From IMG/VR virus record IMGVR_UViG_3300048586_000548, positions 1-64,000 of that record: a DNA stretch of 64,000 bases; one strand, given 5' to 3'. Position numbers and translations under genes: made by a program. This DNA is from a virus. Under the pieces are notes generated by a model. The model ran no database searches and had not been told where the DNA came from. It saw nothing but the letters and a program-made list of their open reading frames with translations. This document shows positions 2,095 through 23,517 of this stretch, piece after piece; position 1 is the stretch's first letter, and each line of letters begins with the position of its first letter.

Positions 2095-2409
2095 GTGACG
2101 TTTCTGAATGCGATACACAACGCGCTCGGCACTGGACTGCGGCTGTACGTGGCAGAGTCCTACGCTCCCGAACCGCACAAGCCCGAGATGGACTGGCTGC
2201 AGAACTACGTGCTGCTGGTGGCCCCCGACATCGAGGCGGCCGCCGAGCTCGCCCGGGCCGAAGCGTCCCGCCCTGGCAGCACGCTGCAGAACGAGCCCCA
2301 CGAGCCTGCGGTGACGCAGATCTGGGTCCGCGACTTTGGCGCGCCTGCGGCGGCGGGGCTGCTTCGCGATCGTGGAACGCTGCTGGTGTGGGCCGTAGAC
2401 GATGCTTGA
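2095..2409 (+). CDS. hypothetical protein with N-terminal helix tag (MTFLNAIHNALG)
   Basis: AGGAGA SD at 2085-2090 before GTG 2095; overlaps the next gene. Confidence 0.75.
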   Translation: MTFLNAIHNALGTGLRLYVAESYAPEPHKPEMDWLQNYVLLVAPDIEAAAELARAEASRPGSTLQNEPHEPAVTQIWVRDFGAPAAAGLLRDRGTLLVWAVDDA

Positions 2410-2752
2410 CGAACTCTACGCTACGCTGGGGCTCGCTGCCCCACCGCGCGACCTGCTGGTGTTCCGCTGGAAGGGTGAGGCGCTCGAGCAGGACTGGTGC
2501 GACTACACCCTGGAACCCGGGGAGCGGCCTAGTGCCCGGGCGGACAGGACGCTGATGGCCGAAATGTTCTATCCGGTCGGGGACGGGTGGTTCGCTCCGG
2601 TGCAACGCCACCCACCGCGAGACCAGTGGAAGATCCGGTACGGCTGCGCGCATCCGCGCGACCACCTCAATCAACAGACGATGGAGTGGACCGTGCGCTC
2701 GGTGTCGCTGCCCGAGTGGGTCCTGGACTGGGACGGCGAGCATGCTGGCTGA
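2402..2752 (+). CDS. ELYAxLG family protein 1
   Basis: Begins MLDELYATLGL; overlapping operon; similar to the next two ORFs. Confidence 0.8.
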   Translation: MLDELYATLGLAAPPRDLLVFRWKGEALEQDWCDYTLEPGERPSARADRTLMAEMFYPVGDGWFAPVQRHPPRDQWKIRYGCAHPRDHLNQQTMEWTVRSVSLPEWVLDWDGEHAG

Positions 2753-3170
2753 ACTGTATGCGGCACTGGGCTTGCCCGTCGCCGCGCCGACGGACGTGTT
2801 GGCGTTCCGCGCGCTCGAGTCGGGCTACAAGCACCCGCGTTGCCTTCAGGCCGACACCCGGCCGATCGACGTTCCGGCGCTCGACGGCGGAGAATACTTC
2901 GTTCCGATCGGCGAGGGGTGGTACATCATTGTGGTCGCCCATGCGCTGGTGGTCCCGCGCGACGCCGGAGTGCCGCTGGAGAACGGGTGGCTCGTGCGGT
3001 ACGCGGCAGACTACCCGTCGTCCGGGATGAACAACTACCTCTACGAGTGGGCGGCGCGTTCCGTGGTGTTGCCGGACGGCGTGCAGGTCCTGCCCACCTA
3101 CTGTCTCGACGCGCCTGAGCCCTACGACGACGACGACGACTACGACGAGGATCTCTACGATGATGACTGA
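2742..3170 (+). CDS. ELYAxLG family protein 2
   Basis: Begins MLAELYAALGL; acidic C-terminal tail. Confidence 0.8.
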   Translation: MLAELYAALGLPVAAPTDVLAFRALESGYKHPRCLQADTRPIDVPALDGGEYFVPIGEGWYIIVVAHALVVPRDAGVPLENGWLVRYAADYPSSGMNNYLYEWAARSVVLPDGVQVLPTYCLDAPEPYDDDDDYDEDLYDDD

Positions 3171-3510
3171 GCTCTATGCGGCGCTGGGGCTGACGGCACG
3201 ATGCTGCCGCGCGCTGTGCTTTCAGTGGGATCTGGACCTGATGGAAAGCTGGACGCGGGACCGCATCTTGGGTACCGCCGACAGTCCCCCGGTTGCTGAT
3301 CGCCGCAACCGCGAGCACTACCTGCTCCTGGACGACGGGTGGCACATGGTGGTGCAATACGTCGACGGGCAATGGACGCCAAAGTTCGCGCCGACGAAAA
3401 ACACGTCGACCCTCAACAAAGAGCTCTTTCAGCAGTGGACCGTGCGCACCATCCTGGCGCCTGCGGGGCTGCACGTTCCCGACGAGCACTGGAGTACCGC
3501 ATGTCCCTGA
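3160..3510 (+). CDS. ELYAxLG family protein 3
   Basis: Begins MMTELYAALGL; shares GW and W-x-x-R-[ST] motifs with its paralogs. Confidence 0.8.
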   Translation: MMTELYAALGLTARCCRALCFQWDLDLMESWTRDRILGTADSPPVADRRNREHYLLLDDGWHMVVQYVDGQWTPKFAPTKNTSTLNKELFQQWTVRTILAPAGLHVPDEHWSTACP

Positions 3511-3878
3511 ACGATGACATTACCAAGATCCTGGTCCCGAACGCCCCGGCACCGCTACCACCGGGCTGGGCCCCGCCACGCCCGCACGGACGCTACCGTA
3601 TCCGGCTGGACGTGCAGTTCAGCGGCAGCGTGGAACAGGTCGTGGAAGTCACGACCGCGGACCCCAGCGCCCTCGGGTTCTACGAGCTCGCCGAGCTGCT
3701 CGACGTGGCTGCGTTGTCTGCGGAAGATGTGCTCGCCGAGGCGAAGGAGACGGCGGAAGTCGCGGATTACAACTACGACGACGACGCCGAGAACCAGGAC
3801 GAACTCGACGCGTGGGACAAGCAGTTCGCGGACACGCATGATCCGGAGAGCGGTCTGCCGCTCGACGACGACGACTGA
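3501..3878 (+). CDS. acidic hypothetical protein with N-terminal helix tag and Pro-rich linker
   Basis: GGAG SD, MSLNDDITKILVP, overlaps the upstream gene. Confidence 0.75.
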   Translation: MSLNDDITKILVPNAPAPLPPGWAPPRPHGRYRIRLDVQFSGSVEQVVEVTTADPSALGFYELAELLDVAALSAEDVLAEAKETAEVADYNYDDDAENQDELDAWDKQFADTHDPESGLPLDDDD

Positions 3879-3914
3879 CCTTTCCTCTTTTACCCTGTGC
3901 TGGGAGTGCAACGC

Positions 3915-5423
3915 ATGACTGCTCGGTGGATGTACCTGTCGGACCTGGCCCCGCAGGCCAACATCATGAACCTCGAGACCGGGGAGCTACGGTCGATCAA
4001 CAGCGCCGCGGTCAAGGACCGCGCGCCGATCGGGCTCCGCCGGTACGTGCTCGAAGAATCGTCGGGCGGGTCGTACCGGGAGACCGGGGAGTGTATGCCG
4101 ATGACCGAGGAGCTCTTCGCGGAGCTCGAGGACAACATGCGGCTGCCCAACAACTGGAACTACGACTGGCCGCATCTCCAGGTGGAGATCGAGGGTGACG
4201 GCGCGGACCATCCGATCCGCCTGGCGATCCTCGAGCGCCTCAACCGCGAGATGGCCGACCACCCGTACACCTTCCAGGTGACCGGGCTGCAGCGGCGGTA
4301 CTTGATGTACTTCTCCGACGGCAACTACCAGTCGCAGCAGGCGTTCGAGCGGTACGTGCCGCGTCCGGACAGCTCGCCCTTCCGGCGGGACGGCTCGCTG
4401 CGCAAGAAGTACAACTGGATCTGGAACTCGAACATGCGGGACGCCAAGGTGCCGGTGCCCCAGACCGAGTCGAAGCTCTACGGCAACCTCGCGCCGTGCC
4501 TCTACACCGGTCCGGCGTGGGTCGTGCGGTTCCAGCTCGACGGCCAGGACCCGCTGCTCGAGCGGTGCCGCGTGTACGTCACCGACGAGGGCGAGTTCAT
4601 CTGCTCCGACTGGTGCCAGCGGCACGACCAGACCAGCTACGGCGACGGCATCAACCTGCAGCGCGGGATCTACAGTTTCGGCGCCTGGGTGACCGGCCCG
4701 TGCGTGACCTTCGCGTCGGGACGAGGCGGGTTCAAGCCCACCAGCACGACCTTCACGCGTACCGCGGTCAAGGACCTGATCAAGCAGCACGGGCTGCTCC
4801 GGCCGCCGCGCGCCTTCGATGACGTCTTCGCGCAGGCCCAGAAGACCGTGGCGAGCTTCGAGTCGGTGGTCCCGGCCGGTGCGCCGAAGCTGGCGCACGA
4901 CGCCGGAGACATCACGGCGGCGGCGGTGGCCGAGGCGGAAGCTGTGGCCGATGCCCGCCTGGCCGAGGTGGGGGAGACGCTGAAGCTCCCCGAGGGCGTG
5001 GTGCCGCAGTCGCTGCGCTCGGCGGGCCTGAGCCTGTCCAACTACGCGTACTTCGAGGTCGACCTGCCGAGCCACAAGTCTGGCCTGGCCTCGACGCACA
5101 AGCGCGGGGTCGTGGGCCTGAAGCTGAACCTCGACGGCTCGGTGACGGCGGCCCTGGTGAGCAACAAGTTCGGTCTGCCCCAGGAGGCGTACGAAGCGCT
5201 GCGGGTGGCCAGCGCGAACGTTGTCCACGGCGCGTTCGCCGTCAATGCGGACTTCGTGCCGGGCGTCCCGGCCACGAACGCCTGCCCGGAGTTCTGGTAC
5301 CTCGGAGACAGCGAGAAGCCGACCAAGGCGGTTGGCGTCGAGGCGCTGAAGCCGTGGTGGCTGTACGACGCGGCGGTCTACTACCGGGACGCCGTGAGCG
5401 TCCCGGCGGAGCTCGTCGGGTGA
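3915..5423 (+). CDS. large hypothetical protein (~502 aa)
   Basis: GGAG SD before ATG 3915; strong codon bias; no motif recognised. Confidence 0.85.
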   Translation: MTARWMYLSDLAPQANIMNLETGELRSINSAAVKDRAPIGLRRYVLEESSGGSYRETGECMPMTEELFAELEDNMRLPNNWNYDWPHLQVEIEGDGADHPIRLAILERLNREMADHPYTFQVTGLQRRYLMYFSDGNYQSQQAFERYVPRPDSSPFRRDGSLRKKYNWIWNSNMRDAKVPVPQTESKLYGNLAPCLYTGPAWVVRFQLDGQDPLLERCRVYVTDEGEFICSDWCQRHDQTSYGDGINLQRGIYSFGAWVTGPCVTFASGRGGFKPTSTTFTRTAVKDLIKQHGLLRPPRAFDDVFAQAQKTVASFESVVPAGAPKLAHDAGDITAAAVAEAEAVADARLAEVGETLKLPEGVVPQSLRSAGLSLSNYAYFEVDLPSHKSGLASTHKRGVVGLKLNLDGSVTAALVSNKFGLPQEAYEALRVASANVVHGAFAVNADFVPGVPATNACPEFWYLGDSEKPTKAVGVEALKPWWLYDAAVYYRDAVSVPAELVG

Positions 5424-5839
5424 TGTTGTTCACCGGCACCCTCGACCGCACGATCATGGAGCACTACCCGTACGCGGCGCAGCACGCCGCGACGGGGGAG
5501 GACTTCGAGTACGGGCGCACGAAAGCCATCTCCCCCGCGCCCGTGGTCATCCGGCGGGTGTCGCTGTCGGAACGCTACGAGTGGTACCGGTGCACGCGCA
5601 TGACGAGCGCGGGGGAGCCCCGGGAGGACGCCGTGATCGCCTTCGAGCCCGCCACCGGCGCTTACTGGTTCTGCGGGGGCACCTCCTCCGTACCGCACAT
5701 TCCGTACACCGACCCCCGCCCGCGCAAGGAACCGCTGCGCGCGGGCTGGTGGGCCTCGATGTGCGTGGCCTGGCTGGAACAGCAACGGACCCAACCCCGA
5801 GACCTGGTCGGCGCGCTGCGCGCCGTCCTGCACGGATAA
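5423..5839 (+). CDS. hypothetical protein with C-terminal helix tag, paralog of 5850
   Basis: TGATG coupling; YWFCGG...WWA motif; ends PRDLVGALRAVLHG. Confidence 0.8.
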   Translation: MLFTGTLDRTIMEHYPYAAQHAATGEDFEYGRTKAISPAPVVIRRVSLSERYEWYRCTRMTSAGEPREDAVIAFEPATGAYWFCGGTSSVPHIPYTDPRPRKEPLRAGWWASMCVAWLEQQRTQPRDLVGALRAVLHG

Positions 5840-5849: not shown

Positions 5850-6305
5850 ATGTGGACCGTCAACCTGACCGCGGACGACATTCACGACTTCCCGCTCGCG
5901 GCGCACCACGCATACATGCGGGCGACGTGGCCTGGAGTCTACGAGGACGACGACTCCCTGCCCGAGCTGGACGAAGAATTGGCCTCGCACACGATTCGTG
6001 TGCTCCAGGTGGGGACTACGGGGGACTACACGCTGTACGCGCTGGGCGAGCCGGACGACGAGTACTCGTACGGCACCGGGATCACCTGGGACCGCAAGCA
6101 CGGCGTGTTCTGGTACTGCGGCGGCATTGACTGCTCCTCACCGTGGTCCGACCAAGAACTGGCGGACTACGTGGCACAGAACGCGGACGAACTGCTCGAC
6201 CCGACCTGGTGGGCCGCGCTCGTCGCCGGATGGCTGCACCGGACCCACTGCGCGCCCAAGCCGACGGATCTGCTGTCGGCGTTGAACCAACTTCTTCATT
6301 CTTGA
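5850..6305 (+). CDS. hypothetical protein with C-terminal helix tag, paralog of 5423
   Basis: AAGGAG SD; FWYCGG...WWA motif; ends PTDLLSALNQLLHS. Confidence 0.8.
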   Translation: MWTVNLTADDIHDFPLAAHHAYMRATWPGVYEDDDSLPELDEELASHTIRVLQVGTTGDYTLYALGEPDDEYSYGTGITWDRKHGVFWYCGGIDCSSPWSDQELADYVAQNADELLDPTWWAALVAGWLHRTHCAPKPTDLLSALNQLLHS

Positions 6306-6320: not shown

Positions 6321-7010
6321 ATGCAACTCGCACTCGTCGGCTGTGGTTTCGTCGGCTCCGTGTTCACGACCGAAATGCTGAAGCGCTGTTTCGCGGGCAA
6401 AATTCCCCTCGACTTCCACTTCATCGATGACGACACCGTGGAAGCGCGGAACTGCGCCAATCAGAACTTCTCCCAGGCGAACATTGGGCAGCCGAAGGCC
6501 CAGGTGATGCAAGGGTTGGCGCTCGACGCCGACCGAGCGGCCACGTACGTTGCGACGCGGCTGACGCCGGAGAACATCGACGCTCTATTGGGCGACGCCA
6601 CGCTCATCGTCGACGGGGTGGACAACCTCGCCACCCGCCAGCTGTTGTGGGGATACGGCATGCGCACGGGCACCCCGGTGCTGCACATCGGCATCACCGA
6701 GCAGGGCACCGGCAAGGTCGAGTGGACCCATCCGGCGCACCAGACCTTTTCGCTCCGCCCTGAACACACGGCGGGCAAGGACATCCCGGACCCGGCCAGC
6801 GGGGTGACCCCGCCGTGCGAGCTCGCTCGGATGCGCGGCGTGGGCCTGAACGCGGGCTTCGCGGCGGCGTGCGCCGCGGCGATCTACTTCGGGTTCGATC
6901 CCGAGAGCCACTTGAAGGGCGACACCTCGCCCGGGTGGTTGACCGAATGGCACGCCAGCCCGATGGGCTTCCTGCCGCAGACCGAAACCTGGGGGAACGT
7001 GCATGTCTGA
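6321..7010 (+). CDS. ThiF/MoeB/E1-like adenylyltransferase
   Basis: GCGFVGS nucleotide-binding loop, DDDTVEARNCANQ, IGQPKA, IVDGVDNLATR. Confidence 0.85.
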   Translation: MQLALVGCGFVGSVFTTEMLKRCFAGKIPLDFHFIDDDTVEARNCANQNFSQANIGQPKAQVMQGLALDADRAATYVATRLTPENIDALLGDATLIVDGVDNLATRQLLWGYGMRTGTPVLHIGITEQGTGKVEWTHPAHQTFSLRPEHTAGKDIPDPASGVTPPCELARMRGVGLNAGFAAACAAAIYFGFDPESHLKGDTSPGWLTEWHASPMGFLPQTETWGNVHV

Positions 7011-8535
7011 CCTGTCCGCGGATATCAAGGGGCTGTTGTCGCCTGCCGCCAAGCCGCCCGCCTCGGCCGGAACCCCGCGCCGCTGGTGGGGCGACGGGCC
7101 GGACGACGAGGGATACTACACCCGGCAGATGTACGGGCACGGTGTGCAGCCGCACAAGCCCACGACGCCGTACCGGCCGCAGACCACGTACGGGTCCGCA
7201 GGCTACCAGAACAGCTACGCGCCGATGCGCGTGGCGGTGGTGCACGCCGACGAGCGGGACGACCGCTACACCATTCCCTACGAGGGACGCGCGTGGTTCG
7301 CCATTGCCTCGACGGTGTGGCCCACGGTCGACAACGTGATGCGCGTGCCGGTGGAGCACTGCCAGTTCACCTACGCGGATCCGCCGTTCAACGCGTGCGT
7401 GTTCACCGCCGCGAACGACTATCTGCAGGCCCGATGGGGCCGCAAGATGGACCACAGCGACCAGCGGTGGTTGGCCCTGCACCCGTACGCCACCGATGGC
7501 GGCGTGCCGCAGGAGTACACCGCCACGTGCGTGCACCAGCTGGTGGCCCCGTACGGCATGGTCGTGAGCCGTGTGCGCTTGCGCCGCGGAAGCTTGGTGC
7601 TGGGCGACTCGGTGATGGCGTGGTTGAACAGCCTGGGCTGCAACCCGTTCGCCATGGCGGACCGCAGCACGACCAACGCCGAGGCCGCCGCCAAGATGGG
7701 TATCACCCCGGCGGAAGCCGATGCGCTCTGGCGGGTGGAGTTCCATGACGATCCGCTGCCCGGCTCGATCATTGGCGAGCGCGGCTGGAGCAACCAGGCC
7801 AGCTCGTCCACTACGGGGAGTGTGGTCACCGGCAACTTCGGTGGGCATGCCCGGTACCTGGCCCCGCGGGGTCGGGCCGGGGACTGGTTCATCTCGGTGC
7901 AGCTCGCCCCGGACGACCGGGTGGAATACTTGGTGCCGCCGCCGGACCCGGCGTACGAGCCGCGCAAGGGCAACCCGACGCTGCTGTACGGCAGTGTCAC
8001 CGGACTGGACGGCCAGCCGATCGCCGTGAAGGACGGGACCAGCTGGCGCCGGGTGGGCGATGCGCCCGCCGCCGCGGCTGGGACGGCCAGCTTGCCCACG
8101 CTTCCGGACGTGCCGAAGAAGCCCGCCGCAAGCCACGGGCATTTGGTCACGTGCGGACTGTGCGCGGAAGACGTGAGCACCGCCGGGGTCCTGCGGGAAG
8201 CGGACGTGTGCTACGAGTGCGCGGAAGCGCTGTGGGACGGCATGGTCTGCCCCCACTGCAAGGTGAGCCTGAGGCGGCAGATCCCGTATCCGCTCACGTA
8301 CAGCATCACCGACCAAGGCCTGGTCGAGGACTACGAGTACAGCTGCAACGCCTGCCGGGAGACGATCGTGTTCCAGTCGTTGGACGCCACGCCCGAGCCG
8401 ACGGAGCACGACTTCATGCTTGAGCACTATCACGAGCTGGTGTTCAACCTCGAGCCGCTGACGGACGACAAGATTGATCAGATCGTCCAGGACGAGCAGG
8501 ACCAGCTCGAGTTCCCACCCACCGACCCGGCGTAA
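7003..8535 (+). CDS. hypothetical protein with N-terminal helix tag and C-terminal double Zn-ribbon
   Basis: MSDLSADIKGLLSP; CGLC, CYEC, CPHC, CNAC; overlaps the ThiF gene. Confidence 0.8.
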   Translation: MSDLSADIKGLLSPAAKPPASAGTPRRWWGDGPDDEGYYTRQMYGHGVQPHKPTTPYRPQTTYGSAGYQNSYAPMRVAVVHADERDDRYTIPYEGRAWFAIASTVWPTVDNVMRVPVEHCQFTYADPPFNACVFTAANDYLQARWGRKMDHSDQRWLALHPYATDGGVPQEYTATCVHQLVAPYGMVVSRVRLRRGSLVLGDSVMAWLNSLGCNPFAMADRSTTNAEAAAKMGITPAEADALWRVEFHDDPLPGSIIGERGWSNQASSSTTGSVVTGNFGGHARYLAPRGRAGDWFISVQLAPDDRVEYLVPPPDPAYEPRKGNPTLLYGSVTGLDGQPIAVKDGTSWRRVGDAPAAAAGTASLPTLPDVPKKPAASHGHLVTCGLCAEDVSTAGVLREADVCYECAEALWDGMVCPHCKVSLRRQIPYPLTYSITDQGLVEDYEYSCNACRETIVFQSLDATPEPTEHDFMLEHYHELVFNLEPLTDDKIDQIVQDEQDQLEFPPTDPA

Positions 8536-8629: not shown

Positions 8630-9091
8630 ATGTCCACCGATACACTGTCGCGCTTCCAGGCGCTGTCTCCGGCTGCCCAGGAGCAGCTGCTCGCGCAGCT
8701 CACCGCGGCACCTGCCGCCCCCACCCCGGCCCCCGGCACGCGCTCGGCGGCGCCGGAGTCGTACTACGACATGGACGCTGCGGTGCCCGTGACGTTCAAG
8801 GCCAAGCTGTCCCCCAGCCCCAAGGCCCGGGACAAGTCGTACGCCGAGCGCTTCGATCACATCTGGGTCAAGGGCCACTACCAGGTGGTCGGCCCCAAGG
8901 GCGGCCAGTACTGCGTGGGCCGCGTGGTCCTCGGGGTGAAGAAGGGCCAGCAGGTCAAGGGTATCCTGCGGATCTCCAACGCCAAGTTCCTCGAACTGCA
9001 GGCAGGCGGCACCGTGGACGGCTGGATGCGCCCGGATGACAGCAAGGACTCGGTGTTGCTGGGTGAGTTGTCGGGCTATCAGGCCGTGTAA
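8630..9091 (+). CDS. hypothetical basic protein
   Basis: AAGGAA SD before ATG 8630; strong codon bias. Confidence 0.8.
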   Translation: MSTDTLSRFQALSPAAQEQLLAQLTAAPAAPTPAPGTRSAAPESYYDMDAAVPVTFKAKLSPSPKARDKSYAERFDHIWVKGHYQVVGPKGGQYCVGRVVLGVKKGQQVKGILRISNAKFLELQAGGTVDGWMRPDDSKDSVLLGELSGYQAV

Positions 9092-11057: not shown

Positions 11058-11527
11058 CCTTCGACCCGACAGCGCTGCGTGAATGTATCGCCGACGCCCA
11101 AGCCGCCATGCCTTTTCCGGTGCGCCGGATGGCAGTGTGCTGGGACCGAGATCACCTCTCCCCCAACATCATCGAGTACGAGTTCTTTCCGGAAGGCTTC
11201 GGTCCGTATGGGACGTGTGCGCCCAGCGCGTTGAGTCCGGATGACGTGCGCGCATACTTCGACGACCTGTACGATTACGACGAAGACATCCCCAACTGGG
11301 ACGCCCAGTACGAGCTGGCCTGCCATGTCGCGGATGCCCTCACCCCGGCGGACACACCCGCGTACTGGATGGCCCGCGTTGTGATCGACCTCGAGACCGG
11401 GGAGTATGTCCTGTGCGCTGGGGTGTACGGTGCCGCACCCGGCGATCGGGTCACCGGCGTCTATGCGCCGCGGCCGCTGACGTTCCTGGAAGCCCTGCAC
11501 GCCACGCTGGGCCCGGCGCATGAGTAA
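11054..11527 (+). CDS. DLxTG array protein 1, C-terminal helix tag
   Basis: ATGA overlap; VIDLETG; ends PLTFLEALHATLGPAHE. Confidence 0.75.
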   Translation: MTFDPTALRECIADAQAAMPFPVRRMAVCWDRDHLSPNIIEYEFFPEGFGPYGTCAPSALSPDDVRAYFDDLYDYDEDIPNWDAQYELACHVADALTPADTPAYWMARVVIDLETGEYVLCAGVYGAAPGDRVTGVYAPRPLTFLEALHATLGPAHE

Positions 11528-11978
11528 CGTTGACCTCCGGGCACAGATTGCCGCCGTCCAACAGCTGCTGCAGCCGCACGCCGATACGCTGGTGGCGGAG
11601 TGCAGTTGGTACTCGGGAGACGCCGACCCCTGCGTGCACGAGTACGAAGTGCACGTGGCGGCCGACTGCCCCGCAGCCCGCCACCTGCAGGACTTGTCGA
11701 TGGAAGACGTGCGCTCAGCCGTGTGGGCGTACTTCGCCGGGATGGACCTCAGCGACACCGGCGAAGCGCTGCAAGACCTGACCTACGATATCGCCGCGGC
11801 CGTGCTGGCGGAGACGATCGCTCCCGGGCAGGAGGCCACGTTCGCGTTCGACCTTCGGACGGGCGCGTATAACGTCTGGGCCCGCCCCTTCGGGGGCGAA
11901 GCGTGGGAGCAAGTCGTCGGGGAACTGTTCAACCCACCCACGAATCTGCTGGACGCGCTCCGGCTGACCCTCAACTAA
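11520..11978 (+). CDS. DLxTG array protein 2, C-terminal helix tag
   Basis: FDLRTG; ends PTNLLDALRLTLN. Confidence 0.75.
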   Translation: MSNVDLRAQIAAVQQLLQPHADTLVAECSWYSGDADPCVHEYEVHVAADCPAARHLQDLSMEDVRSAVWAYFAGMDLSDTGEALQDLTYDIAAAVLAETIAPGQEATFAFDLRTGAYNVWARPFGGEAWEQVVGELFNPPTNLLDALRLTLN

Positions 11979-14325: not shown

Positions 14326-14642
14326 GCTTGACCCGCGAGGACGTGCTGGCGCTCAGTGGACGGGTCGACGGGAGCCGCGTGCGGGTCACGGATCGATGGG
14401 GCGGCAGCACGGTCGGGTATATCGTGCACGCCACGTCAGCGTACTTCGGACTGCGCTTCTACCAGGACTGCTACGGGAGCGACCGCTCGATCTTCTACCA
14501 CGACGTGGTCCGCATCGAAGGCACGCGCAAGAACCGGCGCGGCTACCCGCTCTATTGGGCGAAGACCGCGGTGGTCCAAGACGGCGCGGCGCTGGATCTG
14601 ACCGGCACGCTGCAGAACCTGCTGGCTGGGGCGCAGTTGTGA
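14322..14642 (+). CDS. hypothetical protein, C-terminal helix tag
   Basis: GTGA overlap; ends LDLTGTLQNLLAGAQL. Confidence 0.7.
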   Translation: MSLTREDVLALSGRVDGSRVRVTDRWGGSTVGYIVHATSAYFGLRFYQDCYGSDRSIFYHDVVRIEGTRKNRRGYPLYWAKTAVVQDGAALDLTGTLQNLLAGAQL

Positions 14643-16970: not shown

Positions 16971-17177
16971 ATGCGCACCGCGCGCGCCAAGCCCACGAAG
17001 CAGTTCGAGATACGCGTCACGGAGAGCCGTGAGTATTGGATCACGGTCGACGCGGTGGACAAGGGCGATGCACTACGGCAGGCGTGGGCGATGCAGGGGG
17101 CACTGGACCCCAACGACGCCAATGAGATCCACTTCCACAACGTCGAGTTGATACACGAAGAGGACGACGATGACTGA
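16971..17177 (+). CDS. DpnD/PcfM-like small protein
   Basis: FEIRVTESREYWITVDAVDKGDALRQA. Confidence 0.65.
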   Translation: MRTARAKPTKQFEIRVTESREYWITVDAVDKGDALRQAWAMQGALDPNDANEIHFHNVELIHEEDDDD

Positions 17178-17490
17178 CTTGCTGACAACCATGCACGCCA
17201 CCCTGGGCGGTGCCCCACCCCAGCAGGTGTGGTACCTCGAGGCGCGTTCGGACGAATTCGACGACTACGTCTGCGAACTACCCGACCACAACGAGCGGGG
17301 CGGCTACGTGCGGATCACCATCGAGTATGAGGACGGCACGGACGAGGCGCTGAATGCGAGCGTGGCGCTGGTGCTGAATTCCATCCACGGTGAGGAGATC
17401 GCGGAGTGCTACGGCACGCTGTCGCTGGAGCACGCGCTCGCGATGACGGGTGCTCCGGCGGTGCGGACGGTGTCCAATGGCCACACCTGA
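17170..17490 (+). CDS. AxAMxG family protein 3 with N-terminal helix tag
   Basis: Begins MTDLLTTMHATLGG; LEHALAMTGAP near the C-terminus. Confidence 0.75.
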   Translation: MTDLLTTMHATLGGAPPQQVWYLEARSDEFDDYVCELPDHNERGGYVRITIEYEDGTDEALNASVALVLNSIHGEEIAECYGTLSLEHALAMTGAPAVRTVSNGHT

Positions 17491-18342: not shown

Positions 18343-20241
18343 GTGTCCGCTACTGATCCCCTACCCTTTGGCAAGTTCGCTGGGCGTACCCTCGCCAGTT
18401 TGGCGCAAGGCGCCGAGGGCGAGCAAGGCTACGTCCGGTGGATGGCCGCCAACTTTCGGGACGGCCCCTGGAAGCAGGCGGCCACCGACGCGTTGGCGGT
18501 ACAGGTCGACGCCGAGCCGATCGCCGCCACGACCTTGCAGGTCGGGTGCGTCGACGACCGGATGGCCTGGATCGACTACCCCTACGACCCCGCGGTGACC
18601 GCCGCGCTGCGGAGCGCCATCGATGGGCTGAACTGGCACCGCGCCTCGCGCCGGTGGCTCTTCCCCCGGGCGCAGCTGCTGCGTCTGCTGGATCGCGTGC
18701 AGGCGCTGGGGCACGCGGTCGATTTGACCACGGAGGCTGCGGACGCAGTAGCGGCGGAACGCGCGCGCCGTGCGACCCTCGACACCATCCGGGCGCAGGG
18801 GTCCAGTGGACTGCAGGTGCCCACGGTGCTGCCGTTGTTTCCGTTCCAGACCGTCGGCGTCGAATTTGTCCTGGCTGCTGGGGGTCGCGCCGCAATCACG
18901 GACGAGATGGGCCTCGGCAAGACCCCGCAAGGTATTGGCGTCTGCTTGATGCTGTCCCAGCAGCAGCAGATCGAACGCACGTTGGTCCTCTGCCCCGCGT
19001 CGCTGAAGATCAATTGGTACCGGGAGTTCCGCAAATTCGCGGATCTCGAGGCTACGATCTGGTCCGGCAAGAAGGTCGTGGGCGACCGCACCGGGCCCGT
19101 GCATATCGTGAACTACGACATCTTCCCCCGGTTCCGGGAAGAGTTCGAGGAGCTGGGCATTGACTTGCTCATCGCCGACGAAGCCCACTACCTGAAAAAC
19201 GGCGACAGCCTGCGCACCCAAGCGGTGTTCGGCGGCACCAACAAGAAGCGGAAGCGCGTGGCGCCGTTTGCGGTACCCTACGCGGTGTTGCTGACCGGCA
19301 CCCCGGTGTTGAACCGGCCCGGCGAGATGTACTCGCTGCTGCACTACTTGTATCCCGATCGGTTTCCGGACTGGTACTCCTTCGCCAACCGGTACGGCGC
19401 CTTTCCGCCAGGCAACCTGCGCGGGCTGCCCAGCACTCCGCGGAACCTGGACGAACTGCACGAGCGCACCAAGGACGTCGTGATCCGCCGCCGCAAGGCG
19501 GAGGTCATGCCGGAGCTGCCGCCGCTGCTGGTCAGCGAGCTGTACGTCGAGTTGTCCGCCACGCAGCGCAAGGCCTATCAGCGCCTGCTGGGAGACCTTG
19601 CCACCGAGTGGACCAAGGACGCCAAGGCCAAGCGTCGGCCGTCGCTGCAGCAGCTGCAAGTGCTGACCGCATTCTTGAACGAAGTCAAGCTCGTCAAGGT
19701 GCGGGAGCTGCTGGCGGAATTGCTGGCGGATGAGGGCCGACAAGTCCTGGTGTTCTGCACCCGTCTGGCTCCGCTGCAAGCGCTGCGACAAGAGCTCGGC
19801 GACCAGGCGATGTACATCGACGGCAAGATGTCCCCCACCGCGCGGATGGCAGAAGTCGACCGCTTCCAGGCGGGGTTGGCCCGCGCGGCGCTGCTGTCGA
19901 TCCGGGCCGCCGGGGTCGGGTTGACCCTGACCAACGCCGACGTGGGCATCTTCATCGACCAGGACTTTGTTCCGGCGACGCACCAGCAGGCCGAGGCCCG
20001 CGCCCACCGGTTTGGGCAGGTCAACCCCGTGAACATGTACTACGTGCTGGTCGACGATACGATCGACATCGACTTGCGTGCCTTGCTGGCGGAAAAGCTG
20101 CTGGTGACCAGCCAGGTCACGGACGGTATGGCCGAAGACTCGGCCCGGCTGCAGTCGGTCTTCACCGACTTCGTGCGCCGCTTGCGCGCGCGCTACACCC
20201 AATTTGCCGAGGTCTTGGACCCGGGAGACAATGATGACTGA
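18343..20241 (+). CDS. SNF2-family (SMARCAL1-like) helicase/ATPase
   Basis: DEMGLGKT, DEAH, LTGTP, AAGVGLTL, QAEARAHRFGQ; N-terminal PFGK motif and a HARP-like PYD..W segment. Confidence 0.9.
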   Translation: MSATDPLPFGKFAGRTLASLAQGAEGEQGYVRWMAANFRDGPWKQAATDALAVQVDAEPIAATTLQVGCVDDRMAWIDYPYDPAVTAALRSAIDGLNWHRASRRWLFPRAQLLRLLDRVQALGHAVDLTTEAADAVAAERARRATLDTIRAQGSSGLQVPTVLPLFPFQTVGVEFVLAAGGRAAITDEMGLGKTPQGIGVCLMLSQQQQIERTLVLCPASLKINWYREFRKFADLEATIWSGKKVVGDRTGPVHIVNYDIFPRFREEFEELGIDLLIADEAHYLKNGDSLRTQAVFGGTNKKRKRVAPFAVPYAVLLTGTPVLNRPGEMYSLLHYLYPDRFPDWYSFANRYGAFPPGNLRGLPSTPRNLDELHERTKDVVIRRRKAEVMPELPPLLVSELYVELSATQRKAYQRLLGDLATEWTKDAKAKRRPSLQQLQVLTAFLNEVKLVKVRELLAELLADEGRQVLVFCTRLAPLQALRQELGDQAMYIDGKMSPTARMAEVDRFQAGLARAALLSIRAAGVGLTLTNADVGIFIDQDFVPATHQQAEARAHRFGQVNPVNMYYVLVDDTIDIDLRALLAEKLLVTSQVTDGMAEDSARLQSVFTDFVRRLRARYTQFAEVLDPGDNDD

Positions 20242-20572
20242 TCTGGTCCAGGCGGTGAGCAACGCCCTGAACCCCAAGCCGGTCGAGCGCCTGCGCTCGT
20301 TCCGCATGAGTGTGGTCGGGGAGCTCTGCTTCACGGTGTACGCCAAGAACGCCGACGATGCGGTTACGCAGGGAGAGCGCGTGCTGGAATACTTGGACGA
20401 CATCGATCTGATGCCGCCGGTGTCGCTGTCTCCAGCCGACGCCGCTGCGTATGGCCTGAACCCATGCGCCATGCACCTTATGGCGTATCACGCTCCGTAC
20501 ACGGAGCCTGTCGTCGCGGAGTACAACCCGGATGACGACTGGACTGAGGACGACTGGGAGGTTTTCCCATGA
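20231..20572 (+). CDS. DpnD/PcfM-like protein with N-terminal helix tag
   Basis: MTDLVQAVSNALNP; FTVYAKNADDAVTQG. Confidence 0.75.
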   Translation: MMTDLVQAVSNALNPKPVERLRSFRMSVVGELCFTVYAKNADDAVTQGERVLEYLDDIDLMPPVSLSPADAAAYGLNPCAMHLMAYHAPYTEPVVAEYNPDDDWTEDDWEVFP

Positions 20573-21220: not shown

Positions 21221-21381
21221 TGTCGGATCCCAACACCCCACCTGAGGGCGTCGACTACTGGGCCGACGATCCCCAGCACCCGGTCGCGGAATGGCAAATC
21301 GAAGTCGCAGATGGCGACACCCGCCAGGGGTACTGGGCGTGGGTCGCTGTGCGGCGACTGTTGTGTGCCGATGACGATTGA
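21220..21381 (+). CDS. small Trp-rich protein, not in the ORF track (MSDPNTPPEGVDYWADDPQHPVAEWQIEVADGDTRQGYWAWV...)
   Basis: TGATG coupling; similar to the C-terminus of 22667..23026. Confidence 0.7.
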   Translation: MSDPNTPPEGVDYWADDPQHPVAEWQIEVADGDTRQGYWAWVAVRRLLCADDD

Positions 21382-21682
21382 TCTCCAGGACCCGCTGATC
21401 GCGGCGTTGTGCGGGCAATTCGAGATCCCCACGCACGCGCGGACCTACCAGGTGGTGCTCCCGAGCGAGCTCACGTTCGTGGTCTCCGCGTTCAACAGCG
21501 ACGATGCGCTCGCGCAGGGCTTGCGGGTTGCCGCGACGCTGCACGCCTTGGGGCGCGGGCCCGCGTGGCTCGACCTGCCCAAGCTGGCCGCGGCGCAGCA
21601 TGACGTCCGGCTCGCGCGCTTCCTGGCGTCGGCGATGCCCCTCCCCAACGCCGTTCCGGCGGCGGTCACCTTGCTCCCTTAA
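21371..21682 (+). CDS. DpnD/PcfM-like protein with N-terminal helix tag
   Basis: MTIDLQDPLIAALCG; FVVSAFNSDDALAQG. Confidence 0.7.
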   Translation: MTIDLQDPLIAALCGQFEIPTHARTYQVVLPSELTFVVSAFNSDDALAQGLRVAATLHALGRGPAWLDLPKLAAAQHDVRLARFLASAMPLPNAVPAAVTLLP

Positions 21683-21696: not shown

Positions 21697-21981
21697 ATGG
21701 AGGTCCGACTAGGACCCCGCGCGTCTGCCGAGCTGGACGCCCTCCCAATGCGTGAACAGAAAGCTTTCCGCAAAGTCATGGAACGCTTTCGTGGTGCCCC
21801 GCCGGACGCGCGGCGGCAGATGCTCACAGCGATGTACGCGCCTGCTTTTCGCGACCGCGGGGTGACGCACGCCATTCGCCTGAACCGGAAGTACCGGATT
21901 CTGGTCGGGCGTGCGGACGACACGTATGTCGTGGAAGGCGTGGTTTCTCGCGGCGACAGCCGCTTCTACCGATCGGAGTAA
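21697..21981 (+). CDS. RelE/ParE-fold protein
   Basis: MEVRLGPRASAELDALP..Q, IRLNRKYRIL, VVEGVVSRG pattern. Confidence 0.6.
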   Translation: MEVRLGPRASAELDALPMREQKAFRKVMERFRGAPPDARRQMLTAMYAPAFRDRGVTHAIRLNRKYRILVGRADDTYVVEGVVSRGDSRFYRSE

Positions 21982-21983
21982 GT

Positions 21984-22220
21984 ATGGAAGCACCCGCCCA
22001 CGCCCCCAATGTTGGGGGGACGCTACTGGTGTGTTGGACCAACGCGGCCCTTGGTCCGGGAGACGAAGCCACGGACCACTACGAAGTATTCCGCTGGGAT
22101 CACCCCCAACACGAGCTCGAGCAGGTGGTCGCCGCCCAGGCGCGGTACCAAGCATTGGTGCAAGCTGGGGCCACGATCGTGTCCTTGGCGCGCGTCGAGC
22201 GCTCCACCGACTACCCGTGA
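21984..22220 (+). CDS. hypothetical protein
   Basis: Packed ORF with SD. Confidence 0.6.
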   Translation: MEAPAHAPNVGGTLLVCWTNAALGPGDEATDHYEVFRWDHPQHELEQVVAAQARYQALVQAGATIVSLARVERSTDYP

Positions 22221-22352
22221 GCCCGCCGGGTGAGCACCCTGTCCACACCCGAATGCGGTGGTCGATGAGCATTTGCTGCGGCGGCCCCTGGATGCTGTAC
22301 GCCGAGTGGGTCGCCGTCCAACAACACGCCGCGCTGATCGCGCAGGGGAACT

Positions 22353-22667
22353 ATGTCGGACCTCGTAGCTGAAGTGACTGCCGCGCTCGGGCAGCTGAAG
22401 CGCATGTGCTACCGAGCGGAGATCCCGGCGTCTGTGTTTGTGGACGTGTGGGCGACTTCCGTCGACGACGCCTTTGCGCAGGCTCGCGGGCTGGGGAGCA
22501 TTCTGCATGACGTCTGGAACCCAAGCTTGGTAGAGACCGATCCCGAGTACACCGCGGCGGAAGGCGTGCATTCGCCGGTACTCAACGCCGTGGTAGTGCC
22601 TGCCGACAACCCTGCGCAGCATGAGATCGTCCTCACGTACACCGCCGCGTACATCGGAGAGCTGTAA
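22353..22667 (+). CDS. DpnD/PcfM-like protein with N-terminal helix tag
   Basis: MSDLVAEVTAALG; FVDVWATSVDDAFAQA. Confidence 0.75.
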   Translation: MSDLVAEVTAALGQLKRMCYRAEIPASVFVDVWATSVDDAFAQARGLGSILHDVWNPSLVETDPEYTAAEGVHSPVLNAVVVPADNPAQHEIVLTYTAAYIGEL

Positions 22668-23026
22668 TGCTTGAATACAACGTCTGGTCTGAGTGCCACG
22701 ATCTCGACGAATGGTTCGGGGACCCCGCGGACGCTGAGGCGGCCTACCATATCCACCGCCTCAGCGGGCAGTGGACTGAGGTCCGGTTGACGGCCTACGC
22801 CCTGGACGCCAATGGGGATGTCGACACGAGCCGGTGGCTGCGTCTGCACCCTGGCGTGCCCGATGTGACGGCGGCGCAGTTGGCAACAGTGGTCGGACAT
22901 TGGAACGAATTCCCTGCCCACCCACGCGCAACGTGGAAAGCGCGGGTCGCGGACGACTCCACCAGGGTGGGCTACTGGGACTGGGTCGCCAACCAATTGG
23001 AGGGCGCATGGCTTTTACCCTCGTAG
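22667..23026 (+). CDS. hypothetical protein with C-terminal TRxGYWxWV domain
   Basis: TAATG coupling; similar to the 21220 ORF. Confidence 0.7.
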   Translation: MLEYNVWSECHDLDEWFGDPADAEAAYHIHRLSGQWTEVRLTAYALDANGDVDTSRWLRLHPGVPDVTAAQLATVVGHWNEFPAHPRATWKARVADDSTRVGYWDWVANQLEGAWLLPS

Positions 23027-23517
23027 CGACCGACGGGAGCGCACAGCGCTACACGTGTAGCCTGGCCGTGGGGACGCACAGCCTGCTGGCCGAGGTGATC
23101 GTCGAGCCAGACGTAGTTCGGTTCAGGCTGTATATGCGCCCGGTGGCCATGCCGTTGGCTTGGTGGCTCATTGCCTCGGAGGCGTACTACGACGCGCATT
23201 GGCGCGGACGGCTCCTGAGCCTGCTCGACCTGCCCGCGCCCGATCCGTTTCTCTCCGCACTCGACGGCATCTTGAACGACGGCGCGTCGCCCACGATCAC
23301 CGAAGGGGACAGCAGCGGTGTGGTGTCGGTGGACTGGGCGCCGCTCGACGGGCAATACGCAGGCGTAGTGACGTGGGGCGGTCCCACGCCGTCGCCGGAC
23401 TTGTGGACGTGTTACGAACCGGGGCACGACTACACGAACGTCGGTCTGGCGACCGAAGTCGCGAAACCCACCGCCAAGCGGAGTTGGTGGCAAAAGCTGT
23501 GGAGGCGACACGCATGA
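23008..23517 (+). CDS. hypothetical protein with internal tag-like helix and C-terminal amphipathic helix
   Basis: GGAGG SD; PFLSALDGILN; ends KRSWWQKLWRRHA. Confidence 0.65.
   Translation: MAFTLVATDGSAQRYTCSLAVGTHSLLAEVIVEPDVVRFRLYMRPVAMPLAWWLIASEAYYDAHWRGRLLSLLDLPAPDPFLSALDGILNDGASPTITEGDSSGVVSVDWAPLDGQYAGVVTWGGPTPSPDLWTCYEPGHDYTNVGLATEVAKPTAKRSWWQKLWRRHA

What the first reader, a model, noticed from the sequence alone, without database searches (positions are those of the whole stretch)
2095..23517. A shared amphipathic-helix tag on the N- or C-terminus of ~20 unrelated phage proteins: candidate targeting/cargo-loading system
SEEN: pattern [S/T/D/N]-phi-x3-phi-x3-L-(G), or with the start Met as the first hydrophobic residue. 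N-terminal copies: 2095 MTFLNAIHNALG, 2402 MLDELYATLG, 2742 MLAELYAALG, 3160 MMTELYAALG, 3501 MSLNDDITKIL, 7003 MSDLSADIKGLL, 17170 MTDLLTTMHATLG, 20231 TDLVQAVSNALN, 21371 IDLQDPLIAALC, 22353 MSDLVAEVTAALG. C-terminal copies, nearly all preceded by P-x: 5423 PRDLVGALRAVLHG, 5850 PTDLLSALNQLLHS, 11054 PLTFLEALHATLG, 11520 PTNLLDALRLTLN, 11992 PTTLTDTITGLLT, 12480 PRNLEQVLKQTLG, 13016 PADLLGAVHQALG, 13477 PLTLEQVLRQTLG, 14322 LDLTGTLQNLLAG. One internal copy: 23008 PFLSALDGILN. N- and C-terminal versions can be nearly identical (TFLNAIHNALG, TFLEALHATLG, DLLTTMHATLG). The tag sits on at least six different domain families, often next to a Pro-containing linker. Within a family some members have it and others lack it (17170 yes, 16069/16305/17477 no; 20231/21371/22353 yes, 16785/16971/20963 no). 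I did not see it on ThyX, the helicase, RNR or tail proteins. The underlying DNA is not a repeat, so conservation is at the peptide level. KNOWN: bacterial microcompartment encapsulation peptides are short amphipathic helices working at either terminus, and T4 internal proteins use a short N-terminal capsid-targeting sequence. INFERENCE: a portable address label that recruits a library of small acidic proteins to one receptor, such as the procapsid interior, a phage-built compartment or hub, a host machine, or tag-tag bundles. Possible receptors are the untagged, strongly codon-biased ORFs 1498, 3915 and 8630. Caveat: LxxxLxxxL alone carries little information; the evidence is its terminal position and frequency.
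Basis: partly seen in the sequence, partly recalled or inferred. Interest (0 to 1): 0.92.

Follow-up and report, generated by a model that had tools for sequence, protein, structure and literature searches.

The report
Shared terminal helix tag, phage proteins
Nineteen small, mostly unrelated proteins of an uncultured phage (host probably Gemmatimonadales) carry the same three-turn helix on a flexible tether at their very start or very end; it behaves like a portable docking label, but what reads it is still unknown.

Summary
The motif is [D/T/N/S]-L-x3-[L/I/V/M]-x2-[A/T]-L-[G/N], next to Pro-rich linkers.

- It sits on 11 sequence families, not about 20 independent proteins.
- It is far more terminal than chance and occurs only in the early-like + arm (17 of 68 proteins against 0 of 57).
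- It is conserved as peptide, not as DNA.

It is an add-on. DUF6878 homologues elsewhere lack it. At least 25 of 42 metagenomic homologues of ORF 7003 start with it, ahead of a hypervariable linker. AlphaFold2 models it as a free helix on a 57-residue disordered tether. A related phage carries it on non-homologous proteins.

New here: ORF 7003, the one tag bearer with many detectable homologues, is a papain-fold cysteine peptidase closest to C39 leader peptidases. It also has two zinc sites and lies beside a ThiF/E1-like gene.

Capsid loading is not favoured. BMC shell, encapsulin and Pup genes were not found in the phage or in likely host-clade genomes.

Earlier notes of this scan describe analogous tags in other, mostly huge, phages. 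I found no paper describing this one.

The parts
2098..2130 (+). N-terminal tag TFLNAIHNALG of ORF 2095-2409 (104 aa, no relatives in the genome)
   Evidence: full-matrix score 17.4; best non-training hit when held out
2402..2431 (+). N-terminal tag MLDELYATLG of ORF 2402-2752 (family A); start Met is the first hydrophobic position
2742..2771 (+). N-terminal tag MLAELYAALG of ORF 2742-3170 (family A)
3160..3189 (+). N-terminal tag MMTELYAALG of ORF 3160-3510 (family A); weak when family A is held out
3504..3536 (+). Doubtful N-terminal tag SLNDDITKILV of ORF 3501-3878, followed by PNAPAPLPP
   Evidence: (rank 704 when held out)
3915..5423 (+). Conserved 502-aa protein of unknown fold. Apparently on the same contigs as the 7003 family (14 matching longest-contig lengths). 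Candidate reader, not tested for binding
5801..5833 (+). C-terminal tag DLVGALRAVLH(G) of ORF 5420-5839 (family B)
6267..6299 (+). C-terminal tag DLLSALNQLLH(S) of ORF 5850-6305 (family B, no homologues in 1.84 billion representatives)
6321..7010 (+). ThiF/E1-like adenylyltransferase, untagged; its end overlaps the start of the tagged peptidase gene
   Evidence: Pfam ThiF 3.9e-17; NCBIfam ThiF/MoeB models, all below their cut-offs
7009..7041 (+). N-terminal tag DLSADIKGLLS of ORF 7003-8535
7003..8535 (+). Tagged 510-aa protein: helix 4-12, disordered 14-70, papain-fold (C39-like) cysteine peptidase body with Cys132/His282/Asp294, two CxxC...CxxC zinc sites at 384-451
11480..11512 (+). C-terminal tag TFLEALHATLG(PAHE) of ORF 11054-11527
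11943..11975 (+). C-terminal tag NLLDALRLTLN of ORF 11520-11978
12448..12480 (+). C-terminal tag TLTDTITGLLT of ORF 11992-12483 (family C)
12978..13010 (+). C-terminal tag NLEQVLKQTLG(DT) of ORF 12480-13019 (family C, DUF6878)
13439..13471 (+). C-terminal tag DLLGAVHQALG(SP) of ORF 13016-13480 (family C, DUF6878)
14284..14316 (+). C-terminal tag TLEQVLRQTLG(ET) of ORF 13477-14325 (family C, DUF6878); the G405 orthologue ends PLDVTTVLRSTLGIT
14595..14627 (+). C-terminal tag DLTGTLQNLLA(GAQL) of ORF 14322-14642
17176..17208 (+). N-terminal tag DLLTTMHATLG(GAPP) of ORF 17170-17490 (family D; relatives 16069, 16344 and 17477 lack it)
20240..20272 (+). N-terminal tag DLVQAVSNALN(PKP) of ORF 20231-20572 (family E)
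21380..21412 (+). N-terminal tag DLQDPLIAALC of ORF 21365-21682 (family E); weak, with a Pro inside the helix
22359..22391 (+). N-terminal tag DLVAEVTAALG of ORF 22353-22667 (distant member of family E)
23245..23277 (+). Internal copy PFLSALDGILN in ORF 23008-23517, between LPAPD and DGASPTITEGDSSG
   Evidence: (score 5.6)
8642..8668 (+). Possible degenerate N-terminal copy TLSRFQALS(PAA) of ORF 8630-9091 (hydrophobic spacing 3+3)
   Evidence: read from the translation; not picked up by the matrix

Best explanation
The tag is a portable short docking motif. It is a self-capped, three-turn amphipathic helix with an N-cap D/T/N/S, hydrophobic positions 0, 1, 4 and 8, small residues at 3 and 7, and a C-cap G/N. 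A flexible Pro-rich tether holds it away from the protein body.

The phage lineage has added it to either end of at least 11 unrelated families of small, acidic, fast-evolving early-region proteins. It is also on one widely conserved enzyme, the papain-fold (C39-like) peptidase 7003. The most likely role is to bring all these proteins to one shared binding groove.

**Shown:** the motif, its terminal position, its add-on nature and its conservation in related phages.

**Inferred:** that it binds a common partner, and what that partner is.

| Reader or mechanism | Odds |
|---|---|
| Peptidase 7003 itself, whose closest structural relatives read amphipathic leader helices | about 0.25 |
| Another phage protein, such as 3915, the ThiF-like protein, or one on the missing 38% of the genome | about 0.15 |
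| A conserved host hub | about 0.15 |
| The procapsid | about 0.10 |
| Tag-tag self-association | about 0.10 |
For: - Terminal enrichment and cross-family predictive power of the motif.
- Conservation is at peptide level.
- Add-on nature: DUF6878 homologues elsewhere lack the tail. Untagged relatives of 17170 exist.
- Purifying selection: at least 25 of 42 homologues of 7003 begin, within their first 6 residues, with [S/N/T/D]-phi-x3-phi-x2-[A/V/I]-[L/M]-[N/D/G]-(P). A linker follows that varies in length and sequence.
- The AlphaFold2 model has a helix at 4-12, disorder at 14-70 and a body at pLDDT above 90.
- Relative G405 (terminase 78% identical) carries the motif on non-homologous small proteins and on its DUF6878 orthologue.
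- The whole face 0, 1, 3, 4, 7, 8 is constrained, while positions 2, 5 and 6 vary. That fits a helix lying in a groove.
- One internal copy between flexible stretches suggests a free terminus is not needed.
- Tagged proteins form a coherent class: median pI 4.3 against 5.9 (p 5e-4), with Pro-rich adjoining segments.
- For the peptidase as reader:
  - The 7003 body residues 127-307 match C39 double-glycine leader peptidases best: 6mpz Z 6.1, rmsd 3.6, 103 aligned; 5xe8 Z 5.7; 8vp3 Z 5.4. The rest of the list is papain-like.
  - Cys132 is invariant and sits at the start of a helix. His282 is invariant and Asp294 nearly so, on successive strands. This is the layout described for LahT (PMC6363468).
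  - That enzyme holds leader residues -4, -7 and -12 of a helical leader in hydrophobic pockets.
  - 10 of the 19 tags end in Gly.
Against: - No binding partner has been shown by any method.
- C-terminal tags cannot act as classical leaders. Cutting after their Gly would remove only 0 to 4 residues, and three C-terminal tags have no Gly.
- In 7003 homologues, the residue after the last Leu/Met is mostly N or D, not G. This reads as a helix C-cap, not a conserved cleavage site.
- The fold match is middling (Z about 6, below the tool's stated comfort level of 8). Foldseek found nothing at E below 0.001.
- Family-level enrichment is less extreme than the raw count: 11 families against a rotation-null maximum of 11 in 5000 trials.
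- Only one relative with part of the tag region could be read.
Confidence: 0.55

Rival explanations
1. The tag is a processing signal. It acts like a leader peptide for the phage's own C39-like peptidase 7003. N-terminal tags are cut off, which matures or activates the protein. C-terminal tags are trimmed to end in ...L-G, which the adjacent ThiF/E1-like enzyme could then adenylate for ligation or cyclisation. This is the strong form of the peptidase-reader case, with cleavage.
For: The 7003 body has a papain fold closest to C39 leader peptidases, with a conserved Cys/His/Asp. C39 enzymes read helical leaders that end in Gly-Gly (PMC6363468). 17170 reads MTDLLTTMHATLGG-APP. 6 of the 9 C-terminal tags have L-G or A-G followed by 0 to 4 residues. 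The ThiF-like gene overlaps the peptidase gene. Tag and peptidase are conserved together across the 7003 homologues.
Against: There is no conserved Gly-Gly. 7003 homologues mostly have N or D at that place. Three C-terminal tags lack Gly. The hydrophobic spacing (0, 4, 8) differs from the -4, -7, -12 of double-glycine leaders. No ABC transporter or ubiquitin-like partner was seen. The ThiF-like protein is a bare 229-aa adenylation domain that scores below every NCBIfam cut-off.
Confidence: 0.15
2. The tag is a virion cargo signal. It binds the inside of the procapsid (coat, scaffold or portal), so the tagged proteins are packaged and injected with the DNA. This would resemble the capsid-targeting sequence of T4 internal proteins.
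For: The general logic of many small, fast-evolving, probably host-directed proteins sharing one label. Earlier notes of this scan favoured this reading for tags in some huge phages (unchecked). About 38% of the genome is missing, so a tagged head protein could lie outside the contig.
Against: No protein of the structural arm carries the motif at an end. Nor do the structural proteins of G405 or G406. Tagged genes lie in three long + strand gene runs with ThyX, the helicase and other early-type genes. The candidate late-promoter motif CG...-N14/15-CGACYKA precedes structural genes but no tagged gene. Tagged proteins are strongly acidic. No conserved cleavage site follows the tag.
Confidence: 0.1
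3. No separate reader exists. The helices bundle with each other, as microcompartment encapsulation peptides do in trimers. This gathers the tagged proteins into a condensate or assembly in the infected cell.
For: BMC encapsulation peptides are short helices on disordered linkers. They self-associate into trimeric bundles and drive condensates (PMC12339742). N- and C-terminal versions here are nearly identical, and both ends and an internal site are tolerated. The disordered linker of 7003 is rich in Tyr, Asp, Gly and Arg.
Against: The helix is only about 10-11 residues, against 15-20 for encapsulation peptides (PMC4594438). That is short for a stable bundle. The tags are neutral to acidic, with no conserved charge pair. 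Most tagged proteins have one tag and short linkers, so valency is low.
Confidence: 0.1
4. The tag mimics a host motif. It docks the proteins onto a conserved host hub, such as a polymerase, protease adaptor or division protein, either to take the hub over or to get the phage proteins degraded on schedule.
For: The early-region position and the small acidic bodies fit host-takeover proteins. The motif looks much the same in this phage, in G405 and across the 7003 homologues, without clear genome-specific dialects. That fits a slowly evolving reader.
Against: No host candidate was found. The one tested idea, mimicry of the Mpa-binding helix of Pup, fails because Pup was not found in five Gemmatimonadales genomes. 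The distance from the helix to the chain end varies and one copy is internal, which argues against end-dependent degrons.
Confidence: 0.15

Closest known systems
Encapsulation peptides of bacterial microcompartments (PMC4594438; PMC12339742)
   Same: Short amphipathic helix joined to the body by a poorly conserved linker. Found at the N- or C-terminus, on unrelated enzymes, and absent from homologues outside the system. The hydrophobic pattern is conserved more than the sequence.
   Different: No microcompartment shell gene in the phage or in four likely host-clade genomes. The helix here is 10-11 residues, not 15-20. The carriers are small acidic orphan proteins and a peptidase, not a metabolic pathway. 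The N-cap and C-cap residues are strongly conserved.
Double-glycine leader peptides read by C39 peptidase domains (LahT, ComA, PCAT1; PMC6363468)
   Same: A helical recognition peptide with spaced hydrophobic residues, often ending in Gly. One peptidase can serve many substrates. The phage encodes a peptidase whose fold is closest to C39.
   Different: Leaders are N-terminal only and end in Gly-Gly/Ala/Ser with hydrophobic residues at -4, -7 and -12. Here half the tags are C-terminal, Gly-Gly occurs once, and the spacing is 0/4/8. There is no ABC transporter, and the peptidase itself is tagged.
Capsid-targeting sequence of T4 internal proteins and Alt
   Same: A short shared peptide that addresses several unrelated phage proteins to one place.
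   Different: The T4 signal is N-terminal only and is removed by the prohead protease at a defined site. Here the tag is at both ends, no cleavage motif is seen, and no structural protein is involved.
Hub-binding terminal motifs such as the acidic SSB tip
   Same: A short terminal peptide on a flexible tail that recruits partners. This phage's own SSB-like protein (30766-31266) ends ...DDDDGDGGYPF, and its G405 and G406 orthologues end ...SAFPF.
   Different: In that system one hub carries the peptide and many clients read it. Here many clients carry the peptide and one reader is presumed.

Membership tests
BMC encapsulation peptide | Amphipathic helix of about 15-20 residues joined to the cargo by a poorly conserved linker, at the N- or C-terminus (PMC4594438) | tested here: inconclusive
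   Helix, linker and either-end placement are met. The length is only 10-11 residues.
BMC encapsulation peptide | Shell proteins (BMC-H domain, PF00936) encoded by the same organism or element | tested here: not met
   No PF00936 match in the phage contig or in four Gemmatimonadales genomes; positive controls matched. The phage contig is 62% complete and the genomes are metagenome-assembled, so absence is not proven.
Encapsulin cargo-loading peptide | An encapsulin shell gene (PF04454) present | tested here: not met
   No match in the phage or in four host-clade genomes; controls positive.
T4-type capsid-targeting sequence | N-terminal peptide removed by the prohead protease at a conserved site; cargo found in the virion | not testable with these tools
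   Indirect only: tags occur at both ends, no conserved cleavage motif, no tag on structural-arm proteins.
Double-glycine leader peptide | N-terminal leader ending in Gly-Gly/Ala/Ser, with hydrophobic residues at -4, -7 and -12 (PMC6363468) | tested here: not met
   9 of 19 tags are C-terminal. Gly-Gly occurs only in 17170. The spacing is 0/4/8 relative to L-G.
Peptidase C39 / clan CA (for ORF 7003) | Papain fold with Cys at the start of a helix and His and Asp/Asn on adjacent strands | tested here: met
   AlphaFold2 body at pLDDT above 90. VIA-align top hits are C39 domains at Z 5.1-6.1, followed by a uniformly papain-like list. Cys132 and His282 are invariant and Asp294 is at least 90% conserved in 34 sequences. 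Protein-atlas leads to Peptidase_C39, C39_2 and IpaJ score 0.86-0.88.
Peptidase C39 / clan CA (for ORF 7003) | Significant match to the Pfam models PF03412 or PF13529 | tested here: not met
   No Pfam peptidase hit for 7003 or for any of the 34 family members. Placement within clan CA rests on fold only.
RING finger (C-terminal module of ORF 7003) | Cross-brace C3HC4-type ligand pattern: C-x2-C ... C-x-H-x2-C-x2-C ... C-x2-C | tested here: inconclusive
   The family profile hits RING fingers of UHRF1 (E 2.6e-5) and RNF8 (8.6e-4). The ligands are four CxxC pairs spaced 15, 9 and 28 residues apart with no C-x-H element, which fits two sequential zinc sites. The second half matches the NrdR zinc ribbon.
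Mimic of Pup's helix that binds the proteasomal ATPase Mpa | The host has Pup (PF05639) | tested here: not met
   No Pup in five Gemmatimonadales genomes; the Corynebacterium control was positive.
Ubiquitin-interacting motif (UIM) | Single helix phi-x2-Ala-phi-x2-Ser-phi with acidic flanks that binds a beta-grasp protein (pattern from memory) | tested here: inconclusive
   The tag has Ala at +3 in 7 of 19 copies and Ala/Thr at +7 in 13 of 19. There is no Pfam UIM hit at E up to 10, though filters drop weak hits. No ubiquitin-like protein was identified. Foldseek SUMO/ISG15 rows for 7003 have rmsd about 10-11 A and are not credible.

The most novel reading that the evidence does not exclude
The tags, the C39-like peptidase with its zinc module, and the overlapping ThiF/E1-like gene form one phage-encoded protein-processing system. 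The peptidase would read the helix on about 20 effector proteins and on itself. It would remove N-terminal tags and trim C-terminal ones to a terminal Gly. The E1-like enzyme would then activate that Gly for ligation to targets. This would be a ubiquitin-like logic in which many different proteins, rather than one small modifier, are processed or attached.
Probability: 0.12. Interest if true: 0.92.

Novelty: new variant of a known kind. Interest (0 to 1): 0.74.

Why it matters
Short address peptides that send unrelated proteins to one place are known for bacterial microcompartments, encapsulins and the T4 head. They are not known for the early proteins of a temperate tailed phage, at either end of the protein.

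If one reader exists, finding it would give three things:
- A function for about a quarter of this phage's early-region orphan genes at once.
- A handle for pulling down a whole set of host-directed proteins.
- A compact tag of about 11 residues that could be used to co-localise proteins.

Two findings make the question testable. The tag is also on a conserved papain-fold peptidase next to an E1-like enzyme, and at least 25 metagenomic 7003 homologues carry it. Express the peptidase with two or three tagged proteins and see whether they bind or are cut.

Earlier notes of this scan report analogous tags in several huge phages. The phenomenon may therefore be general in phages with many orphan genes.

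Tried and rejected
- **Tag as a DNA repeat:** rejected, because synonymous codon identity equals the genome expectation.
- **Mimicry of the Mpa-binding helix of Pup (recalled from memory):** rejected, because the attP tRNA-Pro half matches only Gemmatimonadota genomes and five of them have no Pup.
- **BMC shell and encapsulin genes:** not found.
- **Complex prediction:** 7003 residues 71-510 (family alignment) with the first 40 residues of 17170 gave no verdict, score 0.00 against a mark of 0.32. This is no evidence either way.
- **Fold of 3915:** nothing from Foldseek. VIA-align gave only weak polo-box-like rows (Z about 5) for its poorly modelled C-terminal part. Its confident N-terminal domain (1-230) was barely tested. 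The protein atlas gave nothing.
- **Foldseek for 7003:** nothing at E below 0.001.
- **Pfam, PHROGs and NCBIfam:** nothing for most tagged proteins. A scan at E up to 10 showed no UIM or other motif family.
- **Relatives of this phage:**
  - None in the GenBank phage collection.
  - None in 401 Gemmatimonadota genomes with the terminase.
  - None in IMG/VR with 3915, 7003, the helicase or their family alignments.
  - The terminase found G405, G406 and two metagenome contigs. Only G405 covers part of the tag region.
  - FRDC01004067.1 (107.5 kb) should hold all of the tag region but could not be read beyond the fetched 21 kb.
- **The look-up of encoding contigs:** The neighbourhoods of the 3915 and 7003 homologues could not be inspected.
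- **Sequencing runs:** none was listed.
- **5850:** no homologues among 1.84 billion representatives, apart from repeat-type hits.
- **Literature searches:** nothing for the DUF6878 family name, for capsid-targeting plus amphipathic, or for phage short linear motifs.

Full report
**Setting**

The window is the first 64 kb of a 93.5-kb IMG/VR viral contig, 62% complete by CheckV and 66% G+C. I called genes with a codon-usage model trained on its long ORFs.
- About 68 mostly small genes lie on the + strand from 1 to 36.3 kb. They include ThyX, a SNF2 helicase, ribonucleotide reductase, a RuvB-like ATPase and an SSB-like protein.
- The - arm holds integrase, lysis, tail, head, portal and terminase genes.
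- The 5' half of tRNA-Pro next to the integrase, as a 42-nt exact pattern, matches 19 genome contigs: 18 titled Gemmatimonadota or Gemmatimonadales and one 'uncultured bacterium'. The host is therefore probably a Gemmatimonadales bacterium.

Yes. Every quoted peptide is at the stated end of a called gene. Aligned on the hydrophobic anchors, the 19 copies look like this:

| Position | Residues (count out of 19) |
|---|---|
| -1 | D 9, T 4, N 2, S 1 (absent in the 3 Met-start tags) |
| 0 | L 14, M 3, F 2 |
| +1 | mostly L or V |
| +3 | A 7 |
| +4 | L 11, I 4, V 3, M 1 |
| +7 | A 7, T 6, L 4 |
| +8 | L 19 |
| +9 | G 10, N 2, H 2 |
| +10 | often P or G |

On a helical wheel, positions 0, 1, 3, 4, 7 and 8 form one face. 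The residue at -1 is a classical N-cap and the G/N at +9 a classical C-cap.

Statistics:
- A simple pattern finds 17 terminal and 20 internal hits.
- Rotating each protein at random gives a mean of 4.2 terminal hits, at most 13 in 5000 trials.
- All hits are in the + arm: 17 of 68 proteins against 0 of 57.
- With a weight matrix built without the family under test, the held-out tag is the best or nearly the best non-training position in the whole proteome for nine proteins from eight families.
- Synonymous codons agree no more often than genome usage predicts, so selection acts on the peptide.

The claim needs trimming in three ways.
- The tags sit on 11 sequence families, not about 20 independent proteins.
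- 3501 is doubtful, and 3160, 21365 and 7003 are weak when held out.
- ORF 8630, proposed as an untagged receptor, has a tag-like start.

**Is it a portable add-on?**

Four lines say so.
1. Family C is Pfam DUF6878. Its homologues from elsewhere end at the domain, with no linker or helix.
2. 17170 has three untagged relatives in the same genome.
3. ORF 7003 has 42 metagenomic homologues. At least 25 of them begin within their first six residues with the same motif, for example SLLTSLHKVLD-P, NVADTVKAIMNP and YVTDLTDALNG. After it come 40-90 residues that vary freely in length and sequence, and only then the conserved body. The AlphaFold2 model has a helix at 4-12, pLDDT below 50 for 14-70, and a body above 90.
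4. The one relative whose contig reaches into the region is G405 (terminase 78% identical, 59% G+C). It has the motif on its DUF6878 orthologue and on four or five small proteins with no detectable homology to ours.

The tagged proteins are a coherent class. They are acidic (median pI 4.3 against 5.9 for untagged + arm proteins, p 5e-4), and the 12 residues next to the tag are 15% proline against 6.5% background. One internal copy lies between two flexible stretches.

**What surrounds it?**

Three genes in the first tag cluster stand out: 3915, 6321 and 7003. The 3915 and 7003 families are widely conserved (43 and 42 homologues besides the window's own proteins). 6321 is a bare ThiF/E1-like adenylation domain whose end overlaps the start of 7003.

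7003 turns out to be an enzyme.
- Residues 127-307 of the confident model match C39 double-glycine leader peptidases best: 6mpz Z 6.1, rmsd 3.6 A, 103 aligned; ComA 5.7; PCAT1 5.4.
- The rest of the list is uniformly papain-like: staphopain, Josephin, UfSP2, cathepsins.
- Cys132 is invariant and opens a helix. His282 (invariant) and Asp294 (at least 90% conserved) lie on successive strands. This is the layout described for LahT (PMC6363468).
- Protein-language-model neighbours include Peptidase_C39, C39_2 and IpaJ clusters at 0.86-0.88, which are leads only.
- The Z values are middling and no Pfam peptidase model matches. I place it in the papain clan with about 0.8 confidence, and nearest to C39 with less.

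Its C-terminal module has four invariant CxxC pairs. The family profile hits RING fingers (UHRF1, E 2.6e-5). The ligand spacing fits two sequential zinc sites rather than a cross-brace, and the second half resembles the NrdR zinc ribbon. RING membership is therefore open.

**How does it most likely work?**

The anatomy is that of a short docking motif read by a groove: a capped three-turn helix with one fully constrained face, held on a flexible tether, tolerated at either end and once internally, added to unrelated proteins, and kept under selection in related phages. I give about 0.55 to 'docks many proteins onto one shared partner', summing the peptidase, another phage protein and a host hub as possible readers.

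The best single candidate is the peptidase 7003 (about 0.25). Its nearest structural relatives recognise amphipathic leader helices, it is conserved together with the tag, and half of the tags end in Gly. Against this:
- It is tagged itself.
- C-terminal tags cannot be leaders.
- Its own homologues mostly have N or D, not G, after the helix, which reads as helix capping rather than a cleavage site.

**Other readings**
- **Capsid loading is not favoured.** No protein of the structural arm in this phage, G405 or G406 ends in the motif. The candidate late-promoter motif from another note of this scan precedes structural genes and the reductase gene but none of the tagged genes. The cargo would be unusually acidic.
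- **Self-association has a precedent.** Encapsulation peptides form trimers and drive condensates (PMC12339742). Here, though, the helix is short.
- **A host hub remains possible.** The one concrete idea, Pup mimicry, failed.

**Comparison with known systems**

The closest in behaviour are microcompartment encapsulation peptides (PMC4594438). Membership fails on the shell genes and on length. Encapsulin peptides fail on the shell gene. Double-glycine leaders fail on position, Gly-Gly and spacing. The T4 capsid-targeting sequence cannot be tested here.

I found no paper describing such a tag. Earlier notes of this scan describe analogous shared tags in other, mostly huge, phages. Those notes are unchecked and concern different peptides. 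I used one as a lead, to look for the tag on head-building proteins, and found none.

**Limits**
- The contig is incomplete.
- The one complex prediction gave no verdict.

Noticed in passing
window 7003-8535 with 6321-7010: ORF 7003 is a papain-fold, C39-like cysteine peptidase (Cys132/His282/Asp294) fused to two zinc sites that hit RING-finger profiles. The end of a bare ThiF/E1-like gene overlaps its start. No ubiquitin-like protein, E2 or JAB was seen. The 7003 family has 42 metagenomic homologues.
   Followed up: partly
window 3915-5423: Highly expressed-looking 502-aa protein with 43 metagenomic homologues besides itself and an invariant SDWCQRHD motif. It has a confidently modelled N-terminal domain (1-230) without a structural match. 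Most homologues end ...P-S-A-V-E-T-V-L-L-E-A, while this one ends ...SVPAELVG.
   Followed up: partly
window 31266-31607 (C-terminus at 31578-31604); G405 14329-14604; G406 79965-80312: A conserved small protein ends P-[SP]-E-D-L-L-[AN]-V-L-x-x-x in all three phages. The pattern phi-x2-V-L-L-E-A at the very end resembles the tail of the 3915 family in other phages. It may be a second kind of terminal motif.
   Followed up: partly
window 30766-31266: SSB-like protein with an acidic tip ...DDDDGDGGYPF. Its orthologues in G405 and G406 end ...SAFPF. This is the classical hub-recruiting tail and is separate from the helix tag. No Pfam hit.
   Followed up: no
window 20569-20760: A 63-aa product ends in a run of eleven lysines (…AKQKKKKKKKKKKKGNTS). 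The long A-rich DNA run is odd in a 66% G+C genome and could be a slippage site.
   Followed up: no
window about 36815-36866 (- strand): The 5' half of tRNA-Pro(UGG) beside the integrase. The 42-nt sequence matches 19 genome contigs, 18 titled Gemmatimonadota or Gemmatimonadales and one 'uncultured bacterium', which gives a host lead.
   Followed up: yes
window 23008-23517: Two small domains joined by a Pro/Gly/Ser-rich segment that holds an internal copy of the tag. This may be a fusion of a C-tagged protein with its downstream neighbour.
   Followed up: partly
window 9088, 14713, 24447, 30284 and 699 (+ strand): GTAAGGT motifs split the + arm into long gene runs. Each of the three tag clusters lies inside one run (752-9091, 9163-14642, 14766-24450).
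   Followed up: partly
G000 76696-77121 (outside the window): A weak LAGLIDADG-like ORF sits between the portal gene and the next head gene. A homologue is present in G406.
   Followed up: no
window 25913-27187: RuvB-like AAA+ ATPase with an about 100-aa N-terminal extension that starts with a hydrophobic helix. It overlaps a tyrosine recombinase gene and is 62% identical in G405.
   Followed up: no
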